Shown here in pieces: positions 5,255 through 36,670 of a stretch of 64,000 nt of DNA. Where the stretch lies: the sequence record OQ850288. One strand, given 5' to 3'. The position numbers and the translations under genes are program-made. Positions within the stretch are counted from its first letter, which is position 1. Each line of letters begins with the position of its first letter. The notes under the pieces were generated by a model, which was given only the letters and a program-made list of their open reading frames with translations, searched no databases and was not told the DNA's origin. This DNA is from Escherichia phage vB_EcoM_ULIM9.

Positions 5255-5275
5255 AAAAAGGCTCCCGAAGGAGCC
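5255..5275 (-). terminator. intrinsic terminator (UUCG tetraloop hairpin plus U-run on the minus strand)
   Basis: plus-strand aaaaaGGCTCCcgaaGGAGCC just 3' of the stop of gene 5288..5752. Confidence 0.6.
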
Positions 5276-5287
5276 TGTATCTTAACC

Positions 5288-5752
5288 TTAACTGAGGACT
5301 TTAGCAAGGATATTCGCAGCCATCGAAGAAGCTTTTGCAGCAGCAACTACGCCAGCTTTGACAGTGCCATCCTTAATAGCAGATACCGTTGCAGCATCAG
5401 TAAAGAGGTAAGTGATTGTTTTAGAACCACTTGTAAAGGAAAGCATAAGAGTAGTTTCCAGATTGAAAGAGCGATACGGAGCACCTTCTTTAACGATACC
5501 TTCAGCACCTAACTCTGAAGCCTTACCCATATCATAAATAGTCATCAGGTTTTCTTTGTGTGCAGTCGTTGAACCAGCACCTTTTACGTGCTTTTTAACA
5601 TTCAACAATGCACGATATTCACGAATGCTGCCATCAGCTTTTACATTGACAGCACGAAAAATTTTACCTTCAAAGTTACCTTGAATCAATTTACGAACTA
5701 CTACAGATTTGTTTGTCGTATCGTCCAGTGCTACCGTAATGATATTGTTCAT
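5288..5752 (-). CDS. hypothetical protein
   Basis: 154-aa ORF, Ala/Gly/Thr-rich, terminator downstream. Confidence 0.45.
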   Translation of the reverse strand: MNNIITVALDDTTNKSVVVRKLIQGNFEGKIFRAVNVKADGSIREYRALLNVKKHVKGAGSTTAHKENLMTIYDMGKASELGAEGIVKEGAPYRSFNLETTLMLSFTSGSKTITYLFTDAATVSAIKDGTVKAGVVAAAKASSMAANILAKVLS

Positions 5753-8273: not shown

Positions 8274-9095
8274 TTAATCGTAAACTGTAGTTCCTTCTGG
8301 AACACACTTCACATCAAAACCTAAGAACTTACTCACTTCGATGGGTGACACTTTATTCCAATCTAAATGGGAAAGCAAGAAGTTTTCTTGTTTTCTTTTT
8401 GAAAGGTAGTTTGTCACCTTAATAACCATACGGTCACCAGCTTTCTTAATTTTCTTGTAAAGCTTTGTATCGTTGTCAAGACAATCTTCCAAAGTTTTCA
8501 ACACACTAACAGTGTAAGTGTATGCAAATGGTGCAGCAACATACTGGATTTTACCAAACATTGCCTCTACAGCCTCTTCATTACCTTCTAGGAAGATAGT
8601 TTTGTTTGTATCCCGTGAATAGCAATAGCCACGAGAAATCTTCCTGTTATTGAACGTAAAGTTTCTGGCAATAATCCAGCTACTTGTAAGGTCAAGAATA
8701 CCATTCATGTAGATGCGTGTCATATACCTGTTATGATTAATCCAATGAACATCAGTTAAGCTGTCGTTCAAGAGTTTCTCATCTACTTCAATCCAGTCTT
8801 CTGGTATCTTTTTCCAATTTGCTTTTCGGAAAACATAGACTGTCTTTCCAATAACATTAGCAACTGACTTAGCTACATCTTCTGGGGATGAGCAAAAACA
8901 TTCACCATCAACTGTGTCACCAATTGCCTTAATGTAAAGCTGAGGTTCTTCAATTGTATCAAAGTCCTCTGAAACCTCTTTATAGGAAGCTACACCTTCT
9001 GCTGGAACAGCTTTCCAGAGTTTTACAACACCTCTTACAGCTTCTTTACGCTGGTAATGGTGCTCCTTATCAGACATTTTCACAATCTTTAACAA
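8274..9095 (-). CDS. hypothetical protein (possible rIIB-like partner of the upstream GHKL ATPase)
   Basis: 273-aa ORF immediately downstream of the GHKL ATPase gene; assignment by synteny only. Confidence 0.35.
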   Translation of the reverse strand: MLKIVKMSDKEHHYQRKEAVRGVVKLWKAVPAEGVASYKEVSEDFDTIEEPQLYIKAIGDTVDGECFCSSPEDVAKSVANVIGKTVYVFRKANWKKIPEDWIEVDEKLLNDSLTDVHWINHNRYMTRIYMNGILDLTSSWIIARNFTFNNRKISRGYCYSRDTNKTIFLEGNEEAVEAMFGKIQYVAAPFAYTYTVSVLKTLEDCLDNDTKLYKKIKKAGDRMVIKVTNYLSKRKQENFLLSHLDWNKVSPIEVSKFLGFDVKCVPEGTTVYD

Positions 9096-9130: not shown

Positions 9131-10639
9131 CTAACTCTTTTCAGTCGAGAATACAAAGACAATACCATTGTATCTGTGAAACAGACTAGACTCACTTGCA
9201 TAGTCTCGACATGCACCACGCAAGATTTGGTTACGCCCAACAGTCTTCTCAGTGCCATTTTTATTTCGACGGTCATTAATCACGAACAAAAACTGTCCAA
9301 TCTGGCTTTTGCGCATTGCACCAAAGATGTTGAACATGCTCGCCTCTTGAGTGTAGGATAGTGCTGTTGCACGAATCTTACTCTCTAAAGAGTTAAACTT
9401 GACATAAGCAACTGGATTGTATAGGTAGTCCACTTTAGGGATGTTGTTTCCTTTACTGTCAACCTTAATATTACCTTTGCCGTCACGTTCATAGATGACT
9501 GAGCCGTCTTCTGCGTAGATAATTCCACGACGAATGTTTAGTAATTCTTCTTCCAGAGAATCAAGCTTAACGCCTCCCCACTCTAGCTTTGGACACACAG
9601 CATTAAACATCTCTCGTGAGTTCAAACGTAACTCAGCATAAGCCTGTGCAGCATCCATGAGTGTAGGTTGGCTATTAACTTTCTTGATAACATCCTTTGT
9701 AATTGCTTCAGTTATCTTTTTAGTAGCCTCAATGATAACATTTTTTGTCGTGTCATTCATCTGCAATGCTTCACGAGAAGCTGCAATAGCAACTGAACCA
9801 ATAGGCATGTAGATGTTTACAAGGTCTACGCTCCTACGGAAAAATTCTGGCAAGACTTTGAAGAAATCATCACCAAGTAATGCTTCCATGTTAACAGGGT
9901 ATGCAATGTTACCCATCACCACATTAAACTCTGTCCTGTTACCACTAGAACGCCAGCTTTGCTTATGAATCATGGCATCATAAACACCTTCTTCACGGGC
10001 AATGACGTTCATATCTGCTAATACATCGTCATACTCGATATTGCTTTCTGGTTTTACAGCAAAGTATGAGTATACGTGACCAGCTTCTTCAAAGAATTTT
10101 GAGATACGATGGTCAGCAACTGCTACACGTACAGCTAAGCCATTAGGTTCCTTTGTTGGGTTGGTAGTCAGCTTAGTCACTTGAGGAATACCATTCTCAA
10201 GATAAACAGAGTACTTATTAACAACACCGTCAACATAGCTAGATACTGTGAATGACTGAGCAATTGCAAATGGGGATTTTGAGCCGATACCCATTGCACC
10301 AATGTAATCATTAGAGTCATTCTTCGTAGAAGCCCCGTAGTTTAGGTACAAACTCATAACTTTATCATGAGTCAATCCAGTTCCAAAATCACGGACTTCA
10401 AAGTAAGGCTCAAATCGAGTAGGCAAATGCACATGGAACGGGATGTTTTCTTTTCCAGCTTCTTTCTGAGCATCTACTGCGTTACATGACAGTTCACGAA
10501 TCACTGCCCTTTCTTTAAACGTGTATACACCAGAACTCAAAAGGCTGAACATTTCAGGTGTCATTGTAATCTGTGCTTGAGACGTCTCTAAAGAAGTTGA
10601 ACTCTTAATCACTTCTGCGTGGTCGTTTACCATGCGCAT
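9131..10639 (-). CDS. GHKL/Bergerat-fold ATPase domain protein (rIIA-like)
   Basis: IRELSCNAVDA (N box ExxxNAxDA), VRDFGTGL (DxGxG) and GAMGIGSKS (G2 box) in order. Confidence 0.55.
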   Translation of the reverse strand: MRMVNDHAEVIKSSTSLETSQAQITMTPEMFSLLSSGVYTFKERAVIRELSCNAVDAQKEAGKENIPFHVHLPTRFEPYFEVRDFGTGLTHDKVMSLYLNYGASTKNDSNDYIGAMGIGSKSPFAIAQSFTVSSYVDGVVNKYSVYLENGIPQVTKLTTNPTKEPNGLAVRVAVADHRISKFFEEAGHVYSYFAVKPESNIEYDDVLADMNVIAREEGVYDAMIHKQSWRSSGNRTEFNVVMGNIAYPVNMEALLGDDFFKVLPEFFRRSVDLVNIYMPIGSVAIAASREALQMNDTTKNVIIEATKKITEAITKDVIKKVNSQPTLMDAAQAYAELRLNSREMFNAVCPKLEWGGVKLDSLEEELLNIRRGIIYAEDGSVIYERDGKGNIKVDSKGNNIPKVDYLYNPVAYVKFNSLESKIRATALSYTQEASMFNIFGAMRKSQIGQFLFVINDRRNKNGTEKTVGRNQILRGACRDYASESSLFHRYNGIVFVFSTEKS

Positions 10640-11161: not shown

Positions 11162-11178
11162 AGTCTTCTCCAGAAATT

Positions 11179-11199
11179 AAAAAGGCTCCCGTAGGAGCC
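11179..11199 (-). terminator. intrinsic terminator (GGCTCC-uacg-GGAGCC plus U-run)
   Basis: plus-strand aaaaaGGCTCCcgtaGGAGCC 3' of the Nampt-like gene. Confidence 0.6.
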
Positions 11200-11214
11200 T
11201 CTTATCATATACTT

Positions 11215-12996
11215 TTAAAGCTGCTTGTCAATATTATTTCGAATATCACCAAGCGTTGTGTAACCGAACTGCTCAGAGTCACTAAAGACTAAACGTAAAG
11301 CACAAACTGGGTGGTCAAGTGCATCTGCAAAACTCTGGAATCCATAGCCATCTACAGCTTTCAGCTTATCACCATCCCACATAGGTGCTACACCACCAAA
11401 GGCAGATTTCTTAACACCACTATCTGTTTTAGGGTCTTTTGCAAGCATAATCTCTTTACCACCAATGCTTGCAAGAGTTGCTTTGACAGCAAATGCAAAG
11501 GTGTCACGAGTCATGTACTGGTAAGTGTAAGAGCCTACACCAAACACTACGTTAGAGCTTGCAAAACCCATTTCATACAGACGCTTCAGGATTTCGTTTG
11601 CACGTTCCAGTGTGATAGAGTCACCATAGATAAGGCCGATATGCTCATCCAGTACCTTAAACCCTTTAGAGTTAAGAGTTCCCCCAAAGATGTTGTACAG
11701 TGTCTTAATAGCTCCATCAATCTCCGCTACAGGGCGTGTTACAACGTTTGCAGAGCCAACCATATAAGCATTCTTCAACATCACTGTATCAGCAACTTCA
11801 AAGTCTTCTCTGTCAACAACCATTTCGTAGCCTTCTGACAGTAGCCATCCAGCAATACCATAGTTGACGTTTTCAAGCTTCATGTTCAGAACAGCATTCA
11901 ACATTGTGTCACTGGCTTCCAGCTTGCTTAGGTGCTCGTAATAAGCCTTCTTAGCACATTCTAAGTGGATTGCTTTATAACCTGTGACAATATGTACAGG
12001 GTCTCCAGAGTCAGGACGAATTACCAGTTTACCGTCACGTTCCATAATTTCTTTACGAAGTGCTGGTAAGATTTCTGACACAGTTCTCCAGAAGTTATAA
12101 GTATCTGAAACAATACTTGCAATACCAGTTGGGTAAGTTTCTGTTAAGAAACGACGGAAGGTTTGTAACTCACCTTTAAAGCGTCTTTCTTCTTCAATCA
12201 ACTCATTACCACCTTCCCAAGCAATGTTTGCACACATTACAGAGTGCTCAGTGGCTGGTACAGAGCTACCAATATCAGAGATTGGGTAAGACTGTCCATA
12301 GATTCGTTTAGCCGTATACACAGCAGGGAAGCTATCAGTTCCTTTAAAGCTGGTTAAGTGACCTACAGCATTAAATGCGTCATCAGTAAAGCCGGACATA
12401 CCACGCATAGCAAAGTCGTGGCACTGATAAGGTAAATGTAGGTCGTTGTCACAAGTAAGGTCAGCCCACTTCTTACAGATGCGTTTGTAATGCAATGCAA
12501 TAGTTGCAATGGTACAAGCTTTCCAAATCTCAGCAGAGAAAGCATCTTCCAGATAACCTGCTACCCAATGGAAACCTGAAACAGTGTTCTGGAAGACAAT
12601 CATTGGGACACGCATAGGGACAACTGTACCTTCTTCTACAGCGTATACTTCAACTGGTAGATAGCCTAAGTCGTGAAGTGCTTCCCAATGCTCTCGACCG
12701 ATAGCATCTTTACCCAGAACACCATTCATGACTTCTAAGATTTCATCAATGGCTTCTTTTTTATCACGTTCAAAGAAAGTGGCGTTCCAGTGGTCTATCA
12801 AGTAATCTTTAACGAAACGTTGAATACCAAAAGCCACTACACCATCAATTGCTAAGGGGCTGTTAAACCATTTATCACTACGTGGTGTCAGGTTCAACAT
12901 AAGATATTGCGTAGCATCTGGATACTGATATATATGTGATGCCTTGTAAGCATCTGCATTAAGACCTGCTGGTACTGCGTAAAGTGACTTACTCAT
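11215..12996 (-). CDS. nadV: nicotinamide phosphoribosyltransferase-family protein (Nampt/NadV-like; candidate Namat of an NAD+ reconstitution pathway)
   Basis: DAYKASHIYQYP, CHDFAMRGMSG...HLTSFKGTDS and IRPDSGDP align with conserved Nampt segments as recalled; 593 aa. Confidence 0.85.
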   Translation of the reverse strand: MSKSLYAVPAGLNADAYKASHIYQYPDATQYLMLNLTPRSDKWFNSPLAIDGVVAFGIQRFVKDYLIDHWNATFFERDKKEAIDEILEVMNGVLGKDAIGREHWEALHDLGYLPVEVYAVEEGTVVPMRVPMIVFQNTVSGFHWVAGYLEDAFSAEIWKACTIATIALHYKRICKKWADLTCDNDLHLPYQCHDFAMRGMSGFTDDAFNAVGHLTSFKGTDSFPAVYTAKRIYGQSYPISDIGSSVPATEHSVMCANIAWEGGNELIEEERRFKGELQTFRRFLTETYPTGIASIVSDTYNFWRTVSEILPALRKEIMERDGKLVIRPDSGDPVHIVTGYKAIHLECAKKAYYEHLSKLEASDTMLNAVLNMKLENVNYGIAGWLLSEGYEMVVDREDFEVADTVMLKNAYMVGSANVVTRPVAEIDGAIKTLYNIFGGTLNSKGFKVLDEHIGLIYGDSITLERANEILKRLYEMGFASSNVVFGVGSYTYQYMTRDTFAFAVKATLASIGGKEIMLAKDPKTDSGVKKSAFGGVAPMWDGDKLKAVDGYGFQSFADALDHPVCALRLVFSDSEQFGYTTLGDIRNNIDKQL

Positions 12997-13010
12997 ATTT
13001 TATCTCTCTC

Positions 13011-13502
13011 TTAGTTATGTCTTGCAAACTCACCATGAAGTTCTATTCGCTTTTTAATTACAGCTTCTTTTGCTTCTTCTACCGTTTTAAATCTTCCACA
13101 AAAGTATTCTTTATGGTAAAGCATGACTCTTGCTTTGTAAAGACCTGTTTGTTTACAAAAACTTACACCCTTCACACCAGTTTTATTATTCTTGTGTATA
13201 CCCCTATTCCTCTGATTTTGTGACTTTGTGCTAAGTCTTAAATTCTCCAGCTTATTATTAGCTTTATCAAGGTCTATGTGGTCTATCTCATATCCACTTG
13301 GTATCTCACCTCCAGACATAATCCATGCAATATTATGTGCATAGTACCTCTTCTTATTTATCTGGACTTGGATATAACCCTTCTTAGACCTTGTGCCAGC
13401 CACATTACCAGCAATAGCGGTACTGCAAAGGGTTACTCTCCAAATTAATAAACCTGTATCTGGTTCATATATTAGGTATTTTTCAAAATAACCCTTATTC
13501 AT
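13011..13502 (-). CDS. HNH homing endonuclease (paralog 1)
   Basis: YEPDTGLLIWR N-terminal motif and ELHGEFARHN C-terminus shared with the ORFs at 26050 and 36137; HxxxxDxxxxN-type core (EIDHIDLDKANN). Confidence 0.7.
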   Translation of the reverse strand: MNKGYFEKYLIYEPDTGLLIWRVTLCSTAIAGNVAGTRSKKGYIQVQINKKRYYAHNIAWIMSGGEIPSGYEIDHIDLDKANNKLENLRLSTKSQNQRNRGIHKNNKTGVKGVSFCKQTGLYKARVMLYHKEYFCGRFKTVEEAKEAVIKKRIELHGEFARHN

Positions 13503-13510
13503 ACTGTTAC

Positions 13511-14392
13511 CTAATCAATGTTTGCTACAGTAACTTGACTATAATGTGTTAAGCCACGGTCTTTAGCTTCCCCTAAAGAGTTTGTAGTGTAGATGTGGTC
13601 AATGCCATTGTCAAGAAGGTTTTCAACGCCTTTAGAGAAGATACCATGAGTCACATAGAGTTCCACACGTTTTGCACCTGCTTCACGAAGATGTTTAGCT
13701 GCTTCTATGAAGGTTCGACCGCCATCACAGATATCGTCGAGAATCATAACAGTTTTATCGTTCAAATCAACATCATCAAGGATTCGCATACCAGTAATTT
13801 CACCAGTCTTAAGGTTACGTACTTTAGACATTGTGATGTATGGTTTATCCACCTCTTTAGTAGTCTCTGCAATCTTCTTAGAAGCACCTGCATCTGGGGC
13901 TACTAAGTAATCAATCAGAGGGTCATTTGCGTAATGGACTGCAATCTCCTTTTGAGGAATACTCTGGAAGCAATTGAAAAGGTTATCTGGAACGTAACTA
14001 TGAGGGTCAACTGCACAGACTGCATCAAAACCCATTGCATTAACCTGTTGTGCAAACACTTTCAAAGCTGCTGCATCACCTTTAAACATGTGACGGTCGT
14101 AACGTGCATTTGGCAAATAGTAAAAGATAGCAGTCTTCATAGCAAACTTATGAGGTACTAAATCATCAATTGCCTCTTTAGCAAGTGCCACAGCAAATAA
14201 TGTGTCTTTGTCATAACCCTTTATAATCATAATCACGTTGTTGATGGATGATGCAGCATAAGCAGTAAAATCAACAAACTCTGGTGAAAAATGTCCACCA
14301 ATCTCACCAGAAGGAAATTGTACGATGTTAAACTCTTCTTCGTGAGTCCCTTTAGTTGGTGAATGAACTGTAACACGGATAGATGTTTTCAT
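13511..14392 (-). CDS. prs: ribose-phosphate pyrophosphokinase-family protein (Prs-like; candidate ADP-ribose pyrophosphokinase)
   Basis: PRPP-binding loop VMILDDICDGGRTF and DPHS motif; start trimmed to ATG 14392 (track start 14407 is a TTG). Confidence 0.8.
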   Translation of the reverse strand: MKTSIRVTVHSPTKGTHEEEFNIVQFPSGEIGGHFSPEFVDFTAYAASSINNVIMIIKGYDKDTLFAVALAKEAIDDLVPHKFAMKTAIFYYLPNARYDRHMFKGDAAALKVFAQQVNAMGFDAVCAVDPHSYVPDNLFNCFQSIPQKEIAVHYANDPLIDYLVAPDAGASKKIAETTKEVDKPYITMSKVRNLKTGEITGMRILDDVDLNDKTVMILDDICDGGRTFIEAAKHLREAGAKRVELYVTHGIFSKGVENLLDNGIDHIYTTNSLGEAKDRGLTHYSQVTVANID

Positions 14393-14403
14393 AGTTTTGT
14401 CTC

Positions 14404-14682
14404 TCAATCAAAGGTTACGTTTGTTACTGCCATTGCAGATTTGCATTTTACAGGGTCTACAACGTGGTAAAGTACACTACAGTTGCCTGTGCTGTCTGGT
14501 ACAGGTTTTACCCATTGATGCTTTATAGTTGGCTCTCCTAAGTCTTTGTAAGAACCATCTGTAAAGTTGTTTACCATCTCAAGTGCAATTGGTTCTGGAA
14601 CATGACCACGTATCATGTACATTTCACAACCATTACCACCTTCACTGACTAATGGTAAAATTTCCCACTTCTCTTTAGCCAT
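14404..14682 (-). CDS. hypothetical protein
   Basis: 92-aa ORF between the 171-aa ORF and the Prs-like gene, no intervening terminator. Confidence 0.4.
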   Translation of the reverse strand: MAKEKWEILPLVSEGGNGCEMYMIRGHVPEPIALEMVNNFTDGSYKDLGEPTIKHQWVKPVPDSTGNCSVLYHVVDPVKCKSAMAVTNVTFD

Positions 14683-15190
14683 TGTAAGTTGCCCTATAAA
14701 CTGTCTCGAACTTCAACAGGAGAGATATTGCCAAATCTGTATAGTTGTTGTCAAGCACATCTGGCATATTATTTTTGATATACTTCTCTTGCTCTTCGTA
14801 GGTCATCTTAGGGATGCTTAGAAGACTGTCGCCTTGCTTCTGGTTATCAAGCTTAGTCTGGATAAACCAGTTTGCACAGTGATGCTCACCACCCTTTGTA
14901 ACAGGCTTGTGGTGACCTAATGTGAAGGATTGGCTACCTGTGTATCTGCAAAGTTTATTGAGCACTGTAATGGTGTTCTTCACAACAAACAATTCATACA
15001 GGTTATCTATAGTGTAGTGTGGGTAATAACGGAATAGTGCTCTTTCACGAGTACTTTCACGATTCCAGAGAATCATGTGATTGGAGTTTGAGGGGTCGTA
15101 TTGGTGGGAGTCAATGAACTCTTGACGTTCCTCAAAGCTGAGTCTTAGCACTGACATTGCAGCAGAACGTTTTAGGTTTGACAGATACAT
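14675..15190 (-). CDS. hypothetical protein with HNH-like motif
   Basis: GHHKPVTKGGEHHCANWFIQTKLDNQK resembles the HH...GG...N...N HNH core; first gene after the terminator at 15201-15229. Confidence 0.35.
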   Translation of the reverse strand: MYLSNLKRSAAMSVLRLSFEERQEFIDSHQYDPSNSNHMILWNRESTRERALFRYYPHYTIDNLYELFVVKNTITVLNKLCRYTGSQSFTLGHHKPVTKGGEHHCANWFIQTKLDNQKQGDSLLSIPKMTYEEQEKYIKNNMPDVLDNNYTDLAISLLLKFETVYRATYNG

Positions 15191-15200
15191 ATCATCTCCA

Positions 15201-15229
15201 AAATAAAAAGGGAACCTTTACAGTTCCCT
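15201..15229 (-). terminator. intrinsic terminator
   Basis: plus-strand aaaaAGGGAACctttacaGTTCCCTT; minus-strand hairpin followed by UUUUUAUUUU. Confidence 0.55.
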
Positions 15230-15241
15230 TATAGTATCTGC

Positions 15242-15562
15242 TTACTGAGCTACTTTCAAGATTCTTGTGAATGGAATTTCACTTTCTTCCATTAACTCTT
15301 TAGTTTCTTTGGTAACTTTCACAAAGTTATCTAGGCAGATAATCTTCTTATCTTTCTTACTATAGGTTAATTTAACCTTTTCAATATCTTTCTCAGAGCT
15401 TTTCTCTTCATTGAAGAGTTTTACAGCCTCTTTGAATGGGAGATATGAGCCATCATTATCGCTAATGAATCCTGTACCACAATAGTAGGAGTTATGCTCT
15501 CTAGCCATAAACTGGCACAGTAAGAAAATCTGTAATTTACGAGTGTTATAAACTTTGCTCAT
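15242..15562 (-). CDS. hypothetical protein
   Basis: 106-aa ORF. Confidence 0.4.
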   Translation of the reverse strand: MSKVYNTRKLQIFLLCQFMAREHNSYYCGTGFISDNDGSYLPFKEAVKLFNEEKSSEKDIEKVKLTYSKKDKKIICLDNFVKVTKETKELMEESEIPFTRILKVAQ

Positions 15563-15564
15563 GA

Positions 15565-15831
15565 TTATTTAGCCTTCTTATTACGTTTACGGTTACGAGC
15601 TTTCTTAGCTGCTCGTTTAATAGCTGCTGCACCAGACGGACGGTGGGCTTGTTTCTTACCACCTTTGCCACGGCCTACATAGATGTAAGGCTGCTGTTCA
15701 ATTTGGCTTGTAAGAACCTGTGCAACCGCTGAAGCATCTACACCGACCTGCTTTCCAGTCATAGAAACAATTGCTGCTGCTTTTGCCAGTGCCTTCAAGA
15801 AGCCAGCTTTCATATCACCTAAAATTCCCAT
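15565..15831 (-). CDS. hypothetical protein with highly basic C-terminus
   Basis: 88 aa ending KRAAKKARNRKRNKKAK. Confidence 0.4.
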   Translation of the reverse strand: MGILGDMKAGFLKALAKAAAIVSMTGKQVGVDASAVAQVLTSQIEQQPYIYVGRGKGGKKQAHRPSGAAAIKRAAKKARNRKRNKKAK

Positions 15832-17622: not shown

Positions 17623-19767
17623 TTACATAGAAACTCTGTCACGAATCTCAGCAATTTTTGCATCGTTCATTCGGGATTCACCTTTAATCTTAGTCCATCC
17701 AAGATACCCACACACCCTGTTAATCACAGAGATATCATGTGAATGGCAAACCTCACATTCTTCAACATCAGCCTTTGGTCTGTTACCACAATGTTCACAG
17801 ATTGCTAAGTCGAAGTTAAGTCCCTGATAGAAACCTTTCAACATCCCTCTTGTAATACAACTTTTAAGTGCTGATAAGTTTTCTGGATTAGCTACCCTTA
17901 CATACTGGATTCTGCCGCCTCTACAGATATGGAAGAAGGGTTCTTCTAAGTCCTGCTTCTCAAATGGTGTAATATCTGCTGCAACATTCATATGGAAACT
18001 GTTTGTAAAGTATTCCTTGTCAGAGACACCTTTAATAACGCCAAACATATCTCTGAACTGTTTTAGCTGAGTTCCACAAAGTGATTCTGCTGGAGTGCCA
18101 TAGACTGCATATAAGAAGCCATCTTCATTTTTAAACTCTTCAGTTTTCATGTTGATGTATTCCAGAACATCGTATGCAAAACTACAGCTTCCGACTTCAT
18201 GAAGTCGTTTACCTTCAGCAAGAACAGATAGCTCATCAAGAGCAGTAACCCCAAAAGAAGCTGTGAAGGATTTCACAATATCCCAACCAACCCTGTCAGT
18301 AGGTTTCTTATTCCCTTTGTACAGACCACCCTGTGTGAATGCAAGAGGGTTAGAACTTGCTGGCATATTAGCAATCATTTCGTAACGTTTCTTGTGGAAG
18401 CTGCGAATCATCTCTAGGTACTTATCAAGCTCTTTCCAGAAGTCTAAACCATTCTCTTTAGAATACTGGTAAATCATTGGTAAGTTCAAAGATACAGCAC
18501 CAATGTTAGCACGACCAACGTAGAACTCTTCTCCTTCCTCATTAAGATATGGAGACAAGAAAGCTCTGCAACCCATCGGTGAAATAACCTTACCAGAACG
18601 CTCAAAAGCCTCTGCTACAGCACCATGACCAGATACACTTAAGAAGTCTGGATACATTGCTTTAGAGCAACACTCAATAGCTTTACTGTACAGGTGACTT
18701 TGACAGATATTTTCATCATGTCTCTTCTGGTCATAAATATAAACCAGTTTAGGGAATACAACAGGTTTCTTGCTCTTACCTTGACCATTCATACGAACAT
18801 CTAGGAGGGTACTTGCAATCATATATTGCAGTCGGTTATCTTCATTGGACATATCTGAGTCAAGTAACCCGAATGTCAAAGTTGTGAATGCAAAATCCCC
18901 ACGGCTACAAGGTACAGTGTTTAGTTTCATTTCAAGTGACTGGAAACCTTGAGTCAGTTCAATCTGTAGCTGCTCCATGACATAATTGTGGTAATGTTCT
19001 TTAGGAATACCATAAGATGCTGCTTTCTCAGCATGATAGCGTAGAGACTTCTTAGCATACGGTACAAGTACCTTATCAATCTCTGCTAAAGTAAAACCAC
19101 CAAATTGCTGTGCAGTTGCTGAAAGTACTACGTCACCAATAACCTGCAACGCTGACAGTACAGATTTAGGTTCACAGTATTCGATGCCAGACATTTCAAA
19201 GCCACCTTTCAGTACTTTACCAATGTCAAACAGGCAACAGTTAATCCCACCAAAAATTAGGTCTCTTAAGTCATGGATGTAGATAAAACCTTTTTCAATG
19301 GCTTCCAGTTCATCTGGTGTTAAGTGGTACTGTTTAAAGATTTCTTTAGTCAGATAACCACGAATAATTGAACCTTTTGTAGAAATTAAACTGCTGTCAA
19401 AATTAGCGTTTTCTCGGTCACCTAAGAAGAGTGTATCTTTAGTCTTCTGGTAGAGTTCGTCCCAATTTTGAGCAACCTCTTTACGGTAATTTCTATATGT
19501 TGAGTAAGACTCATAAATCTCGTGATTGACTTCTGCCAAAGCACCCTCAACAATACTGTGAATATCATTTACAGAAATTAGTAAATTATTCTGCTTAGTG
19601 GACTTTACCAGAATCCTCATAAATGCTGACTCAAGGGCTTGAGTAACATCTGGTGGAAGCTCTTTATAACCAACTCTGTTAGCTGACTTTGTGACTGCTA
19701 CTAAAACTTTTTTGATATCAGGTTCTTCGAGTGAGCCATTCTTTTTAATAATCTGTACTTTGTTCAT
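17623..19767 (-). CDS. nrdD: anaerobic (class III) ribonucleoside-triphosphate reductase
   Basis: 714 aa; C-terminal Cys cluster CEHCGN...CEVC followed by glycyl-radical motif RVCGYLG. Confidence 0.9.
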   Translation of the reverse strand: MNKVQIIKKNGSLEEPDIKKVLVAVTKSANRVGYKELPPDVTQALESAFMRILVKSTKQNNLLISVNDIHSIVEGALAEVNHEIYESYSTYRNYRKEVAQNWDELYQKTKDTLFLGDRENANFDSSLISTKGSIIRGYLTKEIFKQYHLTPDELEAIEKGFIYIHDLRDLIFGGINCCLFDIGKVLKGGFEMSGIEYCEPKSVLSALQVIGDVVLSATAQQFGGFTLAEIDKVLVPYAKKSLRYHAEKAASYGIPKEHYHNYVMEQLQIELTQGFQSLEMKLNTVPCSRGDFAFTTLTFGLLDSDMSNEDNRLQYMIASTLLDVRMNGQGKSKKPVVFPKLVYIYDQKRHDENICQSHLYSKAIECCSKAMYPDFLSVSGHGAVAEAFERSGKVISPMGCRAFLSPYLNEEGEEFYVGRANIGAVSLNLPMIYQYSKENGLDFWKELDKYLEMIRSFHKKRYEMIANMPASSNPLAFTQGGLYKGNKKPTDRVGWDIVKSFTASFGVTALDELSVLAEGKRLHEVGSCSFAYDVLEYINMKTEEFKNEDGFLYAVYGTPAESLCGTQLKQFRDMFGVIKGVSDKEYFTNSFHMNVAADITPFEKQDLEEPFFHICRGGRIQYVRVANPENLSALKSCITRGMLKGFYQGLNFDLAICEHCGNRPKADVEECEVCHSHDISVINRVCGYLGWTKIKGESRMNDAKIAEIRDRVSM

Positions 19768-19786: not shown

Positions 19787-19807
19787 AAAAAGGTCTCCGA
19801 AGAGACC
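19787..19807 (-). terminator. intrinsic terminator (UUCG tetraloop)
   Basis: plus-strand aaaaaGGTCTCcgaaGAGACC. Confidence 0.55.
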
Positions 19808-19815
19808 CTTTCATT

Positions 19816-20022
19816 TTAAATCTTTTTAGAAAACTTCGCAAAGAGTTCTCTTAGTTTTTCAGTGATGCCCAGATGTATCTCTAGGATTTCAAATATAACC
19901 CATAGTAACATGACTCCAAACAACAAACCTTGTTTAAAGTCAGTAAATAGGTTAGCAATAAGCATACCAATTACAATAACTGGTGCATCAATAACCAAAC
20001 CTTCCCAAAGGCGTTTAAGCAT
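19816..20022 (-). CDS. hypothetical small membrane protein
   Basis: 68 aa with two hydrophobic segments. Confidence 0.35.
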   Translation of the reverse strand: MLKRLWEGLVIDAPVIVIGMLIANLFTDFKQGLLFGVMLLWVIFEILEIHLGITEKLRELFAKFSKKI

Positions 20023-25552: not shown

Positions 25553-26053
25553 TCAAGCACAATTCGCTTTCATTACCTTATGGATTCTTTTTTCAGCATC
25601 TTCATAAGTTTCTTTAGTAATAAACTTAATTGCTGCAATATTGGCATTGTAGAAGAGTCTGAGCTTAGAGTCAATCCTTTTTGTCATTACATCGAATTTA
25701 TGTTGGAGGTTTGCTTCACCATAAACTAGACCACCTTTCGTGTAGTAGGTTTGTATAATGTAAAAGTCAAAAAATTCTTTTCCAAAGCTCTCAATATCCT
25801 TTTTAATATACTCAGAAGAAGTCTCATAAGTCATCCAATCACTTTCCTTAGTGACTATCTTCTTCCGAGTCTTCCCAGCAACTTTTCTTTTAGTAACACT
25901 GTTAAACTGTTTCTTACCCAAATAATACTGTCCAGTCTTTTTGCAGTACACTAGGTAGACAAAACCAAAGTGCTTTGCTGGGTCAACTTCACCACATAGT
26001 GAAATCCAATGTCCATATTCAGGGCAATTGCCAAAACCTTTTATTTTTCTCAT
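25553..26053 (-). CDS. putative GIY-YIG homing endonuclease
   Basis: GFVYLVYCKKTGQYYLGKK resembles the GIY-x(10)-YIG motif. Confidence 0.4.
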   Translation of the reverse strand: MRKIKGFGNCPEYGHWISLCGEVDPAKHFGFVYLVYCKKTGQYYLGKKQFNSVTKRKVAGKTRKKIVTKESDWMTYETSSEYIKKDIESFGKEFFDFYIIQTYYTKGGLVYGEANLQHKFDVMTKRIDSKLRLFYNANIAAIKFITKETYEDAEKRIHKVMKANCA

Positions 26054-26565
26054 TCATCACCTTTATTAGCAAACTCTTTGTGTAAACGTTGACGTTCCCT
26101 ATTTACAACCTCTGCTGCTTCAGCAATCGTGTCATAGTTGCCGAAGAAGTAAACCCTCTTCTTAAAAGTTATCTGTGTAGCCCACTTACCATACTGTTTA
26201 TTGTAGTACACACCTTTAACACCTGATTTATTGTTCTTATTGAGCAATCTATTACATTGGTTCTCTGATAACGTACATGCTCTAAGATTTACCCAGCGAT
26301 TATCTAATGTTACATGATTTTTATGGTCAACACACTCAGGGAGGTAACCATCCATATACAGAACAGCTAGTGTATGTGCATAATAACCCTTACCAAACAA
26401 ATAAATTCTGATGTAACCTTTTAAGTTTGTACCTGCAACAGAGCCAATTTTTGTGTGTCTAGCAGACTTCTTAATCCAAGTAAAGACCCCTGTTTCGGGG
26501 TCATAGTGCAGGTATTCTTTAAGAGTTTGTTGGGTTAACATTTGGTGTCCATCCATACTTGTCAA
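26050..26565 (-). CDS. HNH homing endonuclease (paralog 2)
   Basis: YDPETGVFTWIKK and LHKEFA shared with paralogs; about 30 nt of the 5' region identical to the copy at 36137. Confidence 0.7.
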   Translation of the reverse strand: MTSMDGHQMLTQQTLKEYLHYDPETGVFTWIKKSARHTKIGSVAGTNLKGYIRIYLFGKGYYAHTLAVLYMDGYLPECVDHKNHVTLDNRWVNLRACTLSENQCNRLLNKNNKSGVKGVYYNKQYGKWATQITFKKRVYFFGNYDTIAEAAEVVNRERQRLHKEFANKGDE

Positions 26566-36136: not shown

Positions 36137-36670
36137 ATGGATTTAATTTTACAAAAACGTTTAAAGGAGCTGCTGCACTATGACCCCGAAACAGGGGTCT
36201 TTACTTGGCTTCGTAGAGAAGGTAAATCAAGAGCTGTTAGTGTTTTTAACAGTAATTATGCAGGAAAGGTGGCAGGTAATATCCAGACTGATTCAAGTGG
36301 TCATAAACAGATTAGTATCTATTTTGACAAGAAAGCACATAAAGCACACAGGCTCGCATGGCTTTACGTGTATGGCAAGATGCCAAAAGGTATCATTGAC
36401 CATATCAACGGAGACTCGCTTGACAACAGGATTGTAAACTTAAGGGAAGCAGATGATTTTCAAAGTGCTTGGAATAAAGGTAAACCAGTCACCAATAAAT
36501 CTGGGTACAAGGGTGTAAGTCTTAAGAAGAAGTCTGGTAAGTGGGTCGCACAGATAAGTTATAAAGGTAAGAAGATGTTTTTAGGTCACCATGACACACC
36601 AGAAGAAGCCCATAAAGCTTACTGTGAAGCTGCTATTAAACTCCACGGAGAGTTTGCAAAACTAAGTTGA
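36137..36670 (+). CDS. HNH homing endonuclease (paralog 3)
   Basis: YDPETGVFTWLRR, IIDHINGDSLDNR and LHGEFAKLS shared with paralogs. Confidence 0.7.
   Translation: MDLILQKRLKELLHYDPETGVFTWLRREGKSRAVSVFNSNYAGKVAGNIQTDSSGHKQISIYFDKKAHKAHRLAWLYVYGKMPKGIIDHINGDSLDNRIVNLREADDFQSAWNKGKPVTNKSGYKGVSLKKKSGKWVAQISYKGKKMFLGHHDTPEEAHKAYCEAAIKLHGEFAKLS

What the first reader, a model, noticed from the sequence alone, without database searches (positions are those of the whole stretch)
11179..15229. Nampt-like plus Prs-like operon split by a homing endonuclease: candidate NAD+ reconstitution (anti-NAD+-depletion) system
Between two intrinsic terminators (15201-15229 and 11179-11199) the minus strand carries a 171-aa ORF, a 92-aa ORF, a Prs-family enzyme (13511..14392), an HNH homing endonuclease (13011..13502) and a Nampt-family enzyme (11215..12996). 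A phage gains little from making PRPP for its own sake. As I recall, a two-enzyme phage pathway (NARP1) has been described in which a Prs homologue pyrophosphorylates ADP-ribose and a Nampt homologue condenses the product with nicotinamide to rebuild NAD+, countering NAD+-depleting defences such as Thoeris, DSR or SIR2 effectors. The two upstream co-transcribed ORFs have no assigned role and could be accessory factors. The endonuclease sitting between the two enzyme genes suggests a mobile intein-free insertion.
Basis: partly seen in the sequence, partly recalled or inferred. Interest (0 to 1): 0.8.

Follow-up and report, generated by a model that had tools for sequence, protein, structure and literature searches.

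The report
Known phage NAD+ rebuilding operon (NARP1)

Summary
Five tightly packed minus-strand genes (171 aa, 92 aa, Prs-like, HNH, Nampt-like) sit between two strong terminator hairpins.

The window is a Felixounavirus, and NARP1 was discovered in a Felixounavirus, Bas63 (genes 79-80).
- The window's Nampt-like protein is 97.6% identical to Bas63 gp80. It carries the published Namat signature (GSYTYQYMTRD) and an intact catalytic core.
- The Prs-like protein is the Adps orthologue, 79% identical because its 5' half is mosaic.
- The nearest relatives (skuden, VpaE1, Felix O1), which have the same HNH-split layout, are already listed as NARP1 in the discovery paper's tables.

The system is therefore already known.

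The HNH gene is a real mobile insertion. It occurs in about 61 of 257 relatives and replaces a 31-nt hairpin. It is always linked to one haplotype of the first ~100 nt of namat, and it is more conserved across genera than its flanks.

The two upstream ORFs are lineage-restricted and are lost in some NARP1-bearing relatives. They show no Macro or RyR similarity, so there is no support for them as NARP1 accessories. ORF171 is HNH-like, and its Bas63 orthologue gp77 is reported to counter retron Ec67.

The parts
15198..15259 (-). Upstream boundary element. A sigma70-like promoter (TTGAAA-17-TACTAT, 15259-15231) directly abuts a terminator hairpin (stem 15230-15208) followed by a T-run.
   Evidence: the same terminator is annotated in phage Meda
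14675..15190 (-). ORF171, an HNH-like (His-Me finger) protein. It is the orthologue of Bas63 gp77 (97.1% identical), which is reported to counter retron Ec67.
14404..14682 (-). ORF92, a small alpha/beta protein of unknown function. It is the orthologue of Bas63 gp78 (97.8% identical) and is restricted to the Felixounavirus, Mooglevirus and Suspvirus genera.
13511..14392 (-). adps, encoding ADP-ribose pyrophosphokinase, the first NARP1 enzyme and a member of the Prs family.
13900..14392 (-). Mosaic 5' half of adps. It is 47-75% identical in nucleotides to Bas63, while the flanking genes are 90-100% identical. Synonymous sites are saturated.
13011..13502 (-). Free-standing HNH_3/AP2 homing endonuclease gene. 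It is inserted between adps and namat in place of a 31-nt hairpin.
11215..12996 (-). namat, encoding nicotinamide ADP-ribose transferase, the second NARP1 enzyme and a member of the Nampt family.
12895..12996 (-). HNH-linked haplotype tract, covering the first 102 nt of namat. It is the probable target or co-conversion region of the endonuclease.
11503..11535 (-). Codons for the Namat selectivity-clamp helix signature GSYTYQYMTRD (residues 488-498).
   Evidence: the signature is defined in PMC12774641
11716..11946 (-). Codons for a 77-aa insertion (residues 351-427) that is absent from the crystallised SPbetaL1 Namat.
11170..11231 (-). Downstream boundary element. A promoter-like site (TTGACA-16-TATGAT, 11231-11204) abuts a terminator hairpin (stem 11203-11180) followed by a T-run.

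Best explanation
The locus encodes NARP1. When an NAD+-depleting defence (SIR2-HerA, DSR, type I Thoeris and similar) cleaves NAD+ into ADP-ribose and nicotinamide, Adps (13511-14392) uses ATP to pyrophosphorylate ADP-ribose to ADPR-PP. Namat (11215-12996) then joins ADPR-PP to nicotinamide and regenerates NAD+, which lets the phage replicate. This enzymology is inferred here by orthology and was not shown for this phage.

A selfish HNH/AP2 homing endonuclease gene has inserted into the adps-namat spacer without disrupting either reading frame. It probably spreads by cutting HNH-less relatives near the 5' end of namat and being copied in during repair, together with about 50-100 nt of flanking namat sequence.

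The two upstream genes are co-oriented and tightly packed with the NARP1 genes, so they probably share a transcript. They are separate cargo. ORF171 is an HNH-like protein whose Bas63 orthologue counters retron Ec67. ORF92 has no known function.
For: Identity of the phage and the system:
- The window is a Felixounavirus, 96% identical in DNA to skuden and VpaE1 over the locus.
- NARP1 was defined in the Felixounavirus Bas63. Deleting genes 79-80 sensitises the phage to SIR2-HerA, and ADPR-PP appears in infected cells. Single deletions cost 1e4-1e6 in plating efficiency.
- Bas63 has the same gene order. Identities to the window are 97.6% (Namat), 78.8% (Adps), 97.1% (ORF171) and 97.8% (ORF92).
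- skuden, VpaE1 and Felix O1, which have the same HNH-split layout, are listed as Adps / Adps-associated Namat in the discovery paper's tables.

Namat:
- It matches the solved chains 9w5w/9w5x at E 7e-129, against about 1e-41 for Nampt. 9w5x residue numbering matches the SPbetaL1 Namat numbering in PMC12774641.
- It has the SCH signature GSYTYQYMTRD, the SCL residues K42/W43, and conserved D15, Y17, F195, R198, D221, H250, R327 and D329.

Adps:
- It is 37-43% identical to Namat-linked phage homologues, against at most 73 bits to any solved Prs.
- It falls far below every NCBIfam Prs equivalog cut-off.
- It carries DDICDGGRT where the archaeal Prs 4twb has DDiisTGgT.

HNH mobility:
- Empty sites hold a 31-nt hairpin.
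- About 61 of 257 relatives carry the gene, and every carrier has one particular namat 5' haplotype.
- The HNH gene is 91% identical across genera, while adps is 56-83% identical. The first 51 nt of namat are 98% identical between Moogle and the window.
- Two paralogues lie elsewhere in the window.
Against: - No biochemistry or genetics exists for this particular phage.
- Its Adps N-terminal half is a different allele from the validated Bas63 protein (60% amino-acid identity over codons 1-92).
- The biochemistry in the literature was done on the more distant SPbetaL1 enzymes, because the Bas63 Adps did not purify.
- Namat retains PRPP-dependent NMN synthesis in vitro, so some classical salvage activity is not excluded.
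- The five-gene transcript is inferred from gene spacing and the flanking terminators only.
- The endonuclease target site is inferred from haplotype linkage, which is not phylogenetically independent.
Confidence: 0.93

Rival explanations
1. Classical pyridine salvage, as annotated since the Felix O1 genome. Under this reading the Prs-like enzyme makes PRPP and the Nampt-like enzyme makes NMN, which host NadR or PncC convert to NAD+.
For: - Pfam, PHROG and NCBIfam names are Prs and Nampt/NAPRTase. TIGR01251 is just passed (122.6 bits against a cut-off of 113).
- GenBank annotations call the gene nadV.
- Namat can make NMN from PRPP in vitro.
Against: - Bas63 still overcomes SIR2-HerA in a pncC nadR double-deletion host, and ADPR-PP is detected in infected cells.
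- The SPbetaL1 Adps homologue acted on ADPR and gave no product in the Prs-type control reaction.
- The Namat adenine-clamp signature is present.
- Every Prs equivalog model scores far below its cut-off.
Confidence: 0.04
2. An extended NARP1 in which ORF171 and/or ORF92 act as accessory factors feeding or regulating the pathway, by analogy with the Macro-domain phosphatase Adpp or the RyR-domain glycosidase RyDEP.
For: - The ORFs are co-oriented with and tightly packed against adps, and the 8-nt overlap between them suggests translational coupling.
- The ORF171-adps-namat order is conserved as far as Kolesnikvirus, where Adps is only 43% identical.
- There is precedent for small accessory genes embedded in NARP1 operons.
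Against: - Both families are confined to Ounavirinae-size genomes, whereas NARP1 occurs in 859 diverse phages.
- They are absent next to the NARP1 genes of Pakpunavirus and Klebsiella phages.
- ORF92 has no homologue in Kolesnikvirus.
- SP4 replaces most of both ORFs with a methylase cassette, and FGS030 lacks them, yet both keep NARP1.
- Neither protein matches Macro or RyR families, or any other Pfam family above its cut-off.
- The ORF92 model matches only generic S6/uL23-like folds.
- In Bas63, gp77 has a separate phenotype against retron Ec67.
Confidence: 0.05
3. The HNH insertion has uncoupled or impaired the operon, so that NARP1 is decaying in HNH+ phages.
For: The insertion removes the native 31-nt spacer hairpin and puts 0.5 kb between the two enzyme genes.
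Against: - Both reading frames are full length with all catalytic motifs.
- Namat evolves under strong purifying selection (dN 0.014, dS 0.149 against Bas63).
- The HNH+ layout persists in about 61 records, including Felix O1.
- Short gaps and SD-like sequences precede each gene. The Meda record annotates a ribosome-binding site for each gene.
Confidence: 0.02

Closest known systems
NARP1 of Escherichia phage JohannRWettstein (Bas63), genes 79-80 (Osterman et al., bioRxiv 10.1101/2024.02.11.579819)
   Same: Same genus and the same gene order (gp77-gp78-adps-namat). Namat is 97.6% identical, ORF171 97.1% and ORF92 97.8%. Both loci have the same flanking genes, nrdG upstream and rIIA/rIIB downstream.
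   Different: - Bas63 has no HNH gene between adps and namat. It has a 31-nt hairpin there instead.
- Its Adps N-terminal half is a different allele (60% amino-acid identity over codons 1-92).
- Its first 102 nt of namat are the HNH-less haplotype.
- It has an extra 114-aa gene (0081) after namat.
NARP1 of Bacillus phage SPbetaL1, the biochemically and structurally characterised Adps/Namat (the solved chains 9w5w/9w5x appear to be this Namat)
   Same: Same two-enzyme logic. The Namat catalytic core and the SCH signature are conserved (GSFTYQYNTRD in SPbetaL1, GSYTYQYMTRD here).
   Different: - The window Namat is about 100 aa longer, with a 77-aa insertion at residues 351-427 and about 15 aa at residues 258-272.
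- The SCL stacking residue is W43 following K42, rather than R40.
- The host range is different.
NARP1-AP (Adps, Macro-domain phosphatase Adpp, Namat; Vibrio phage Gary) and the RyDEP-extended NARP1 (mycobacteriophage DyoEdafos)
   Same: A third gene is embedded in the adps-namat operon.
   Different: Here the embedded gene is a selfish HNH endonuclease rather than an ADPR-processing enzyme. No Macro or RyR domain was found in any of the five proteins. This locus is therefore predicted to be ineffective against aRES-type ADPR-1P-producing defences.
NARP2 (Nampt plus Nmnat; Vibrio phage KVP40)
   Same: A Nampt-family enzyme is used for counter-defence.
   Different: NARP2 lacks Adps, uses PRPP and needs an Nmnat. 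The window has Adps adjacent to a protein that carries the Namat clamp signature.
Free-standing homing endonucleases of T4-type phages (seg/mob genes; 'intronless homing' with localised marker exclusion). This comparison is from my own knowledge.
   Same: - An intergenic endonuclease gene with a sporadic distribution.
- A precise empty site in relatives.
- A short linked tract of flanking sequence in an adjacent conserved gene.
- Higher cross-lineage identity than the flanking genes.
   Different: The enzyme belongs to the HNH_3/AP2 family. Its target site and its cleavage activity are untested.

Membership tests
NARP1 (Adps + Namat) | A Prs-family protein that belongs to the phage Adps clade rather than to bona fide Prs | tested here: met
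   - phrog_619 at E 1e-97.
- 37-43% identity to Namat-linked homologues in Kolesnikvirus, Pakpunavirus and a Klebsiella phage, against at most 73 bits to any solved Prs.
- Every NCBIfam Prs equivalog model scores far below its cut-off.
- The near-identical skuden and VpaE1 proteins are listed as Adps in the discovery paper's table.
NARP1 (Adps + Namat) | A Namat homologue in the immediate vicinity of adps (within 10 genes) | tested here: met
   namat starts 515 nt downstream of the adps stop codon, with one gene (HNH) between them.
NARP1 (Adps + Namat) | The Namat selectivity-clamp helix signature GS-X-phi-X-phi-X-phi-TRD, with aromatic X | tested here: met
   GSYTYQYMTRD at residues 488-498. 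The signature is defined in PMC12774641.
NARP1 (Adps + Namat) | A Namat selectivity-clamp loop that supplies an adenine-stacking residue (third residue R, or K/Y followed by the stacking residue) | tested here: met
   The loop is TPRSDK42W43FNSPLAID, which follows the K-then-aromatic pattern described for Bas63 Namat. Stacking itself was not modelled.
NARP1 (Adps + Namat) | [quoted passage not shown] | tested here: met
   The window equivalents D15, Y17, F195, R198, D221, H250, R327 and D329 are all conserved.
NARP1 (Adps + Namat) | The Adps active-site lysine (K162 in SPbetaL1 Adps) | tested here: inconclusive
   The flexible-loop lysine in SK190VR and the motifs ARYDR, DPHS and DDICDGGRT are conserved in 8 diverse Adps proteins.
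NARP1 (Adps + Namat) | The enzymatic conversion ADPR + ATP to ADPR-PP, then ADPR-PP + nicotinamide to NAD+ | not testable with these tools
   Shown for the SPbetaL1 enzymes, and ADPR-PP was detected in Bas63-infected cells. Inferred here by orthology.
NARP1 (Adps + Namat) | Counter-defence against NAD+-depleting systems | not testable with these tools
   Shown for Bas63 deletions of genes 79-80 on SIR2-HerA hosts.
NARP1-AP / RyDEP-extended NARP1 | A Macro-domain phosphatase (Adpp) or a RyR-domain glycosidase encoded in the operon | tested here: not met
   None of the five proteins matched a Macro or RyR family in Pfam, with E up to 10 allowed for ORF92 and ORF171. The ORF92 model has no such structural match.
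NARP2 | A Nampt encoded without Adps, paired with an Nmnat in the same genome | tested here: not met
   Adps is present and adjacent. The window was not searched for an Nmnat.
Bona fide ribose-phosphate pyrophosphokinase (Prs) | A score above the NCBIfam equivalog cut-offs, and the canonical ribose-5-phosphate loop DD-x-x-D/S-T-x-G-T | tested here: not met
   The best equivalog scores 103 bits against a cut-off of 296. Only the broad subfamily model TIGR01251 passes, at 122.6 against 113. The loop reads DDICDGGRT, against DDiisTGgT in the Prs 4twb. The canonical loop consensus is from my own knowledge.
Free-standing homing endonuclease | A nuclease domain together with a DNA-binding module | tested here: met
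   HNH_3 at E 5.5e-19, AP2 at E 4.9e-4 (below the Pfam cut-off), phrog_99 at E 5e-68.
Free-standing homing endonuclease | Presence/absence polymorphism with a precise empty site among close relatives | tested here: met
   About 61 of 257 related records carry the gene. Empty sites in Bas63, mio, DaR-2019a, JK55 and SP4 hold a 31-nt hairpin with conserved flanks.
Free-standing homing endonuclease | Evidence of horizontal spread with co-conversion of flanking sequence | tested here: met
   - The two probes (HNH 3' end plus namat 5' end, and namat 5' end alone) hit record sets of the same size and make-up. No record therefore has the HNH without haplotype I, and all 61 carriers have it.
- The HNH gene is 91% identical between genera, while adps is 56-83% identical.
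- The first 51 nt of namat are 98% identical between Moogle and the window, then identity falls to 73-90%.
Free-standing homing endonuclease | Site-specific cleavage of the HNH-less allele | not testable with these tools
   The target is only inferred to lie near namat nt 50-65, from the densest cluster of haplotype differences.
GIY-YIG nuclease (as stated for Bas63 gene 77 in the PhageMaP preprint) | A GIY-YIG domain in ORF171 or its orthologues | tested here: not met
   - There was no GIY-YIG match in Pfam or PHROGs.
- 14/14 family members match PHROG HNH families.
- H93, N107 and N116 are invariant on a predicted beta-beta-alpha element.
- The top Foldseek hits are HNH domains, but they are not significant.

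The most novel reading that the evidence does not exclude
The terminator-bounded cassette may be a conserved Ounavirinae counter-defence block rather than NARP1 plus bystanders. In this reading, ORF171 (an HNH-like protein whose Bas63 orthologue counters retron Ec67) and/or ORF92 cooperate with NARP1. The deeply diverged, recombining alleles of the Adps N-terminal half would be maintained by host factors that sense or inhibit Adps, adding a further layer to the NAD+ arms race.
Probability: 0.06. Interest if true: 0.55.

Novelty: already known. Interest (0 to 1): 0.2.

Why it matters
NARP1 lets phages defeat a broad class of NAD+-depleting defences (SIR2-HerA, DSR1/2, type I Thoeris, SEFIR). 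Recognising it in a Felix O1-like phage matters for predicting host range and for choosing therapy or diagnostic phages.

That recognition is already in the literature for this exact lineage, so this window mainly corrects the legacy 'Prs / NadV salvage' annotation.

The modest additions here are three:
- A homing endonuclease is hitch-hiked onto the counter-defence operon, and a short piece of namat travels with it.
- Adps shows allelic mosaicism.
- ORF171, the orthologue of Bas63 gp77, looks HNH-like and not GIY-YIG.

Tried and rejected
1. I tested whether the divergent adps 5' allele is linked to the HNH, as a target-immunity tract. This was rejected. A concatenated probe hit 197 records but only 50 had both halves, and many phages (wV8, EC6, mio) have the same adps allele without the HNH. 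The linked tract lies on the namat side instead.

2. I tested whether the adps divergence reflects fast positive selection. This is not supported. Synonymous sites are saturated (pS 0.83) with dN 0.34, which fits an old allele imported by recombination.

4. I tested ORF92 as a RyR or Macro accessory enzyme. There was no Pfam hit even with E up to 10 allowed. The AF2 model (pLDDT 68) matches only generic S6/uL23-like folds at E above 0.02.

5. I tested the Kolesnikvirus gene at the ORF92 position as a homologue. It cannot be aligned (23% identity).

6. I followed up the PHROG label 'NAD synthetase' on the ORF at 25553-26053 as a possible extra NAD gene. Pfam shows it is a SegE-like GIY-YIG endonuclease.

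7. A MAFFT alignment across the insertion misplaced the right flank, so I redid the junction by direct inspection.

Full report
**Observation**

The five minus-strand ORFs are present exactly as described: 171 aa (14675-15190), 92 aa (14404-14682), Prs-like (13511-14392), HNH (13011-13502) and Nampt-like (11215-12996). They are tightly packed, with an 8-nt overlap followed by gaps of 11, 8 and 14 nt.

Both flanking hairpins are found by the terminator scan.

| Terminator | Stem | Features | Energy |
|---|---|---|---|
| Upstream | 15230-15208 | 9 bp + T-run | -12.4 kcal/mol, z -2.3 |
| Downstream | 11203-11180 | 10 bp + T-run | -16.6 kcal/mol, z -4.2 |

Terminator-like hits as a class are not enriched in the region (4 found, 5.2 expected). 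The two internal hits are weak. The two flanking hairpins sit exactly in intergenic gaps and are annotated as terminators in the GenBank record of phage Meda.

Profile searches confirm the family assignments:
- Nampt-like: PF04095 and PF18127.
- Prs-like: PF14572 and PF00156.
- HNH: HNH_3 with a weak AP2 match.

**What the phage is**

The locus is 96% identical in DNA to Felixounaviruses such as skuden and VpaE1, and 257 phage records match it. Felix O1 itself has the same five-gene layout, ORF125 through NadV.

**The system is NARP1, and this lineage is its type example**

The discovery paper found the 'two-gene operon' in BASEL phages and did the genetics in Bas63 (JohannRWettstein), a Felixounavirus.
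- Deleting genes 79-80 sensitised Bas63 to SIR2-HerA and deepened NAD+ depletion.
- The counter-defence did not need host pncC or nadR.
- ADPR-PP appeared only in infections with wild-type phage on defended cells.
- An independent knockout screen found 1e4-1e6 plating defects for either gene on SIR2-HerA hosts.

I retrieved Bas63 (MZ501086). It has the same order: 0077 (171 aa), 0078 (92 aa), 0079 (293 aa) and 0080 (593 aa).

| Window protein | Bas63 protein | Identity |
|---|---|---|
| Namat | gp80 | 97.6% |
| ORF171 | gp77 | 97.1% |
| ORF92 | gp78 | 97.8% |
| Adps | gp79 | 78.8% |

The paper's supplementary tables list Felix O1, VpaE1 and skuden as Adps and 'Adps-associated' Namat. In those tables the gene numbers of the two enzymes skip one, and that skipped gene is the HNH. 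The HNH-split arrangement is therefore already catalogued as NARP1.

**Membership tests on the sequence**

A 2026 structural paper defines what separates Namat from Nampt: a conserved catalytic core plus an adenine 'selectivity clamp'.
- The clamp helix signature is GS-X-phi-X-phi-X-phi-TRD. The window protein has GSYTYQYMTRD at residues 488-498.
- The clamp loop reads K42-W43, which is the pattern described for Bas63 Namat.
- The core residues D15, Y17, F195, R198, D221, H250, R327 and D329 are all conserved.

The best solved-structure matches are 9w5w/9w5x at E 7e-129, far ahead of Nampt at about 1e-41. The residue numbering of 9w5x matches the numbering the structural paper uses for SPbetaL1 Namat.

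For Adps no solved structure exists. The evidence that it is Adps and not Prs is as follows:
- It is 37-43% identical to Namat-linked homologues from Kolesnikvirus, Pakpunavirus and a Klebsiella phage, against at most 73 bits to any solved Prs.
- It falls far below every NCBIfam Prs equivalog cut-off.
- It carries DDICDGGRT where the Prs 4twb has DDiisTGgT. That variant is shared by eight diverse Adps proteins.

Enzyme activity and the counter-defence phenotype are inferred by orthology and were not shown for this phage.

**The HNH gene**

HNH-less relatives (Bas63, mio, DaR-2019a, JK55, SP4) have a 31-nt spacer between adps and namat. It contains the hairpin GGGGCTTGAAAGCCCC followed by ATTTT. 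In the window, the HNH gene plus a few bases replaces that spacer, and the flanks are conserved on both sides.

My first idea was that the strongly divergent 5' half of adps was the endonuclease-linked tract. That was wrong. Only 50 of the 197 records hit by a concatenated probe had both parts.

The linked tract is on the other side. The first 102 nt of namat exist as two haplotypes that differ at about 25 clustered positions, while the rest of the gene is 95-99% identical.
- A probe joining the HNH 3' end to the namat 5' end hit 112 records, 61 of them at full length.
- The namat 5' tract alone hit 112 records with the same make-up.
- It follows that every HNH carrier has this haplotype, 51 records have a similar haplotype without the HNH, and the remaining ~145 relatives have neither.
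- The Fisher p value is 3e-28, with the caveat that genomes are not phylogenetically independent.

An independent replicate comes from other genera.
- Moogle (HNH+) is 98% identical to the window over namat nt 1-51 but only 73-90% identical beyond that.
- Its HNH-less congener Sf13 is 88% and 76% identical to the window over the first two 51-nt bins.
- The HNH gene itself is 91% identical across genera, while adps is 56-83% identical.

Two paralogues lie elsewhere in the window. This is the expected footprint of a free-standing homing endonuclease. Its target probably lies near namat nt 50-65, in the codons of the conserved D-A-Y-K-x-x-H motif. Cleavage is untested.

**The upstream ORFs**

ORF171:
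- It belongs to a narrow family of 20 clusters, all from Ounavirinae-size genomes.
- A 52%-identical homologue sits at the same position in Kolesnikvirus.
- H93, N107 and N116 are invariant and fall on a predicted beta-beta-alpha element.
- All 14 members tested match PHROG HNH or endonuclease VII families.
- Structure searches were not significant.
- The PhageMaP preprint reports that Bas63 gp77 counters retron Ec67 and calls it GIY-YIG. I found no GIY-YIG signal.

ORF92:
- Its family is even narrower and is absent from Kolesnikvirus.
- It has no Pfam match.
- It models as a small alpha/beta fold with only generic matches.

Neither ORF occurs next to the NARP1 genes of Pakpunavirus or Klebsiella phages. 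SP4 replaces ORF171 codon 39 through ORF92 codon 58 with a methylase cassette. Some relatives keep ORF171 only, or neither ORF, while keeping NARP1.

The known NARP1 accessories are Macro-domain and RyR-domain enzymes. Neither domain is present here. I therefore treat the upstream ORFs as co-located, probably co-transcribed cargo rather than parts of the pathway.

**Other features**

- The adps 5' half (window ~14380-13900) is 47-75% identical in nucleotides to Bas63, while the flanks are 90-100% identical. Synonymous sites are saturated. Felix O1 combines a Bas63-like start with a window-like end. adps is thus a recombining mosaic of old alleles. All catalytic motifs are conserved.
- Both boundary terminators are directly preceded by promoter-like -35/-10 pairs. 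The same composite recurs at about 5276 and 19809, giving 4 of 18 hairpins against 1.7% expected.

**Verdict**

The system is already known, in this very lineage. The accessory-factor idea is not supported. The mobile-endonuclease idea is supported and extended.

Noticed in passing
window 12895-12996 (minus strand; first 102 nt of namat): There are two sharply distinct haplotypes with about 25 clustered differences. One is found in every HNH-carrying genome and the other in HNH-less Bas63, mio, DaR-2019a and JK55. The window-type tract is also carried by HNH+ Moogle and phiSUSP1 in other genera, which suggests an endonuclease target or co-conversion tract.
   Followed up: yes
window 13900-14392 (minus strand; 5' half of adps): This is a mosaic segment: 47-75% nucleotide identity to Bas63 against 90-100% in the flanking genes, with synonymous sites saturated. 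Felix O1 is a recombinant of the two allele types. The reason two old Adps N-terminal alleles persist is unexplained.
   Followed up: partly
window 11716-11946 (Namat residues 351-427) and residues 258-272: A 77-aa insertion and a ~15-aa insertion relative to the crystallised SPbetaL1-type Namat. The insertion is variable in length in the Namats of Gram-negative-host phages and absent in SPbetaL1. It has no Pfam match and no known function.
   Followed up: partly
window ~5259-5300, 11180-11231, 15208-15259 and 19790-19840 (all minus strand): Composite elements in which a sigma70-like -35/-10 pair abuts a terminator hairpin (0-3 nt between them). They account for 4 of 18 hairpins against about 1.7% expected by chance (binomial p 2e-4). 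They resemble the promoter-stem-loop cassettes described in T4-type phages (from memory) and bound the NARP1 cassette on both sides.
   Followed up: partly
window ~9141 (rIIA; ORFs 9131-10639 and 8274-9095, minus strand): A 1-nt deletion in an A-run, relative to skuden and Bas63, splits rIIA into 502-aa and 273-aa ORFs. This is either a real rII frameshift or a homopolymer sequencing error. PhageMaP reports rIIA/rIIB (g84/g85) as counters of qatABCD in Bas63.
   Followed up: partly
window 26050-26565 (minus strand) and 36137-36670 (plus strand): Two more HNH_3/AP2 endonuclease paralogues, 40% and 36% identical to the one in the NARP1 operon. One lies between the exonuclease gene and a SegE-like gene, and the other lies directly after the DNA polymerase gene.
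   Followed up: partly
window 25553-26053 (minus strand): The PHROG family label is 'NAD synthetase' (phrog_447), but Pfam shows a SegE-type GIY-YIG endonuclease (E 3.6e-27). The PHROG name is misleading and this is not an NAD gene.
   Followed up: yes
window 17623-19767 (minus strand; nrdD): nrdD is one uninterrupted 714-aa ORF here. The Bas63 record annotates it as two joined pieces with a homing endonuclease gene inside, so endonuclease content differs between these close relatives.
   Followed up: no
L009 (Bas63) 15629-15659; also L019 and L020 at ~2385-2415: HNH-less relatives carry a small hairpin with a short T-run (GGGGCTTGAAAGCCCC then ATTTT; -11.5 kcal/mol) between adps and namat. 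It could be an attenuator or an RNA-stability element that sets the Adps:Namat ratio, and it is lost in HNH+ phages.
   Followed up: no
L010 (Salmonella phage SP4) 2025-2882: A split adenine methyltransferase cassette replaces ORF171 codon 39 through ORF92 codon 58, while NARP1 is retained. SP4 also has the HNH-type namat 5' haplotype without the HNH gene.
   Followed up: partly
window 15242-15562 (minus strand; ORF106, DUF7390): Several GenBank records call this gene a 'putative HNH homing endonuclease'. Here it matches only DUF7390 and phrog_4462 (unknown function), so the label looks like annotation carry-over.
   Followed up: no
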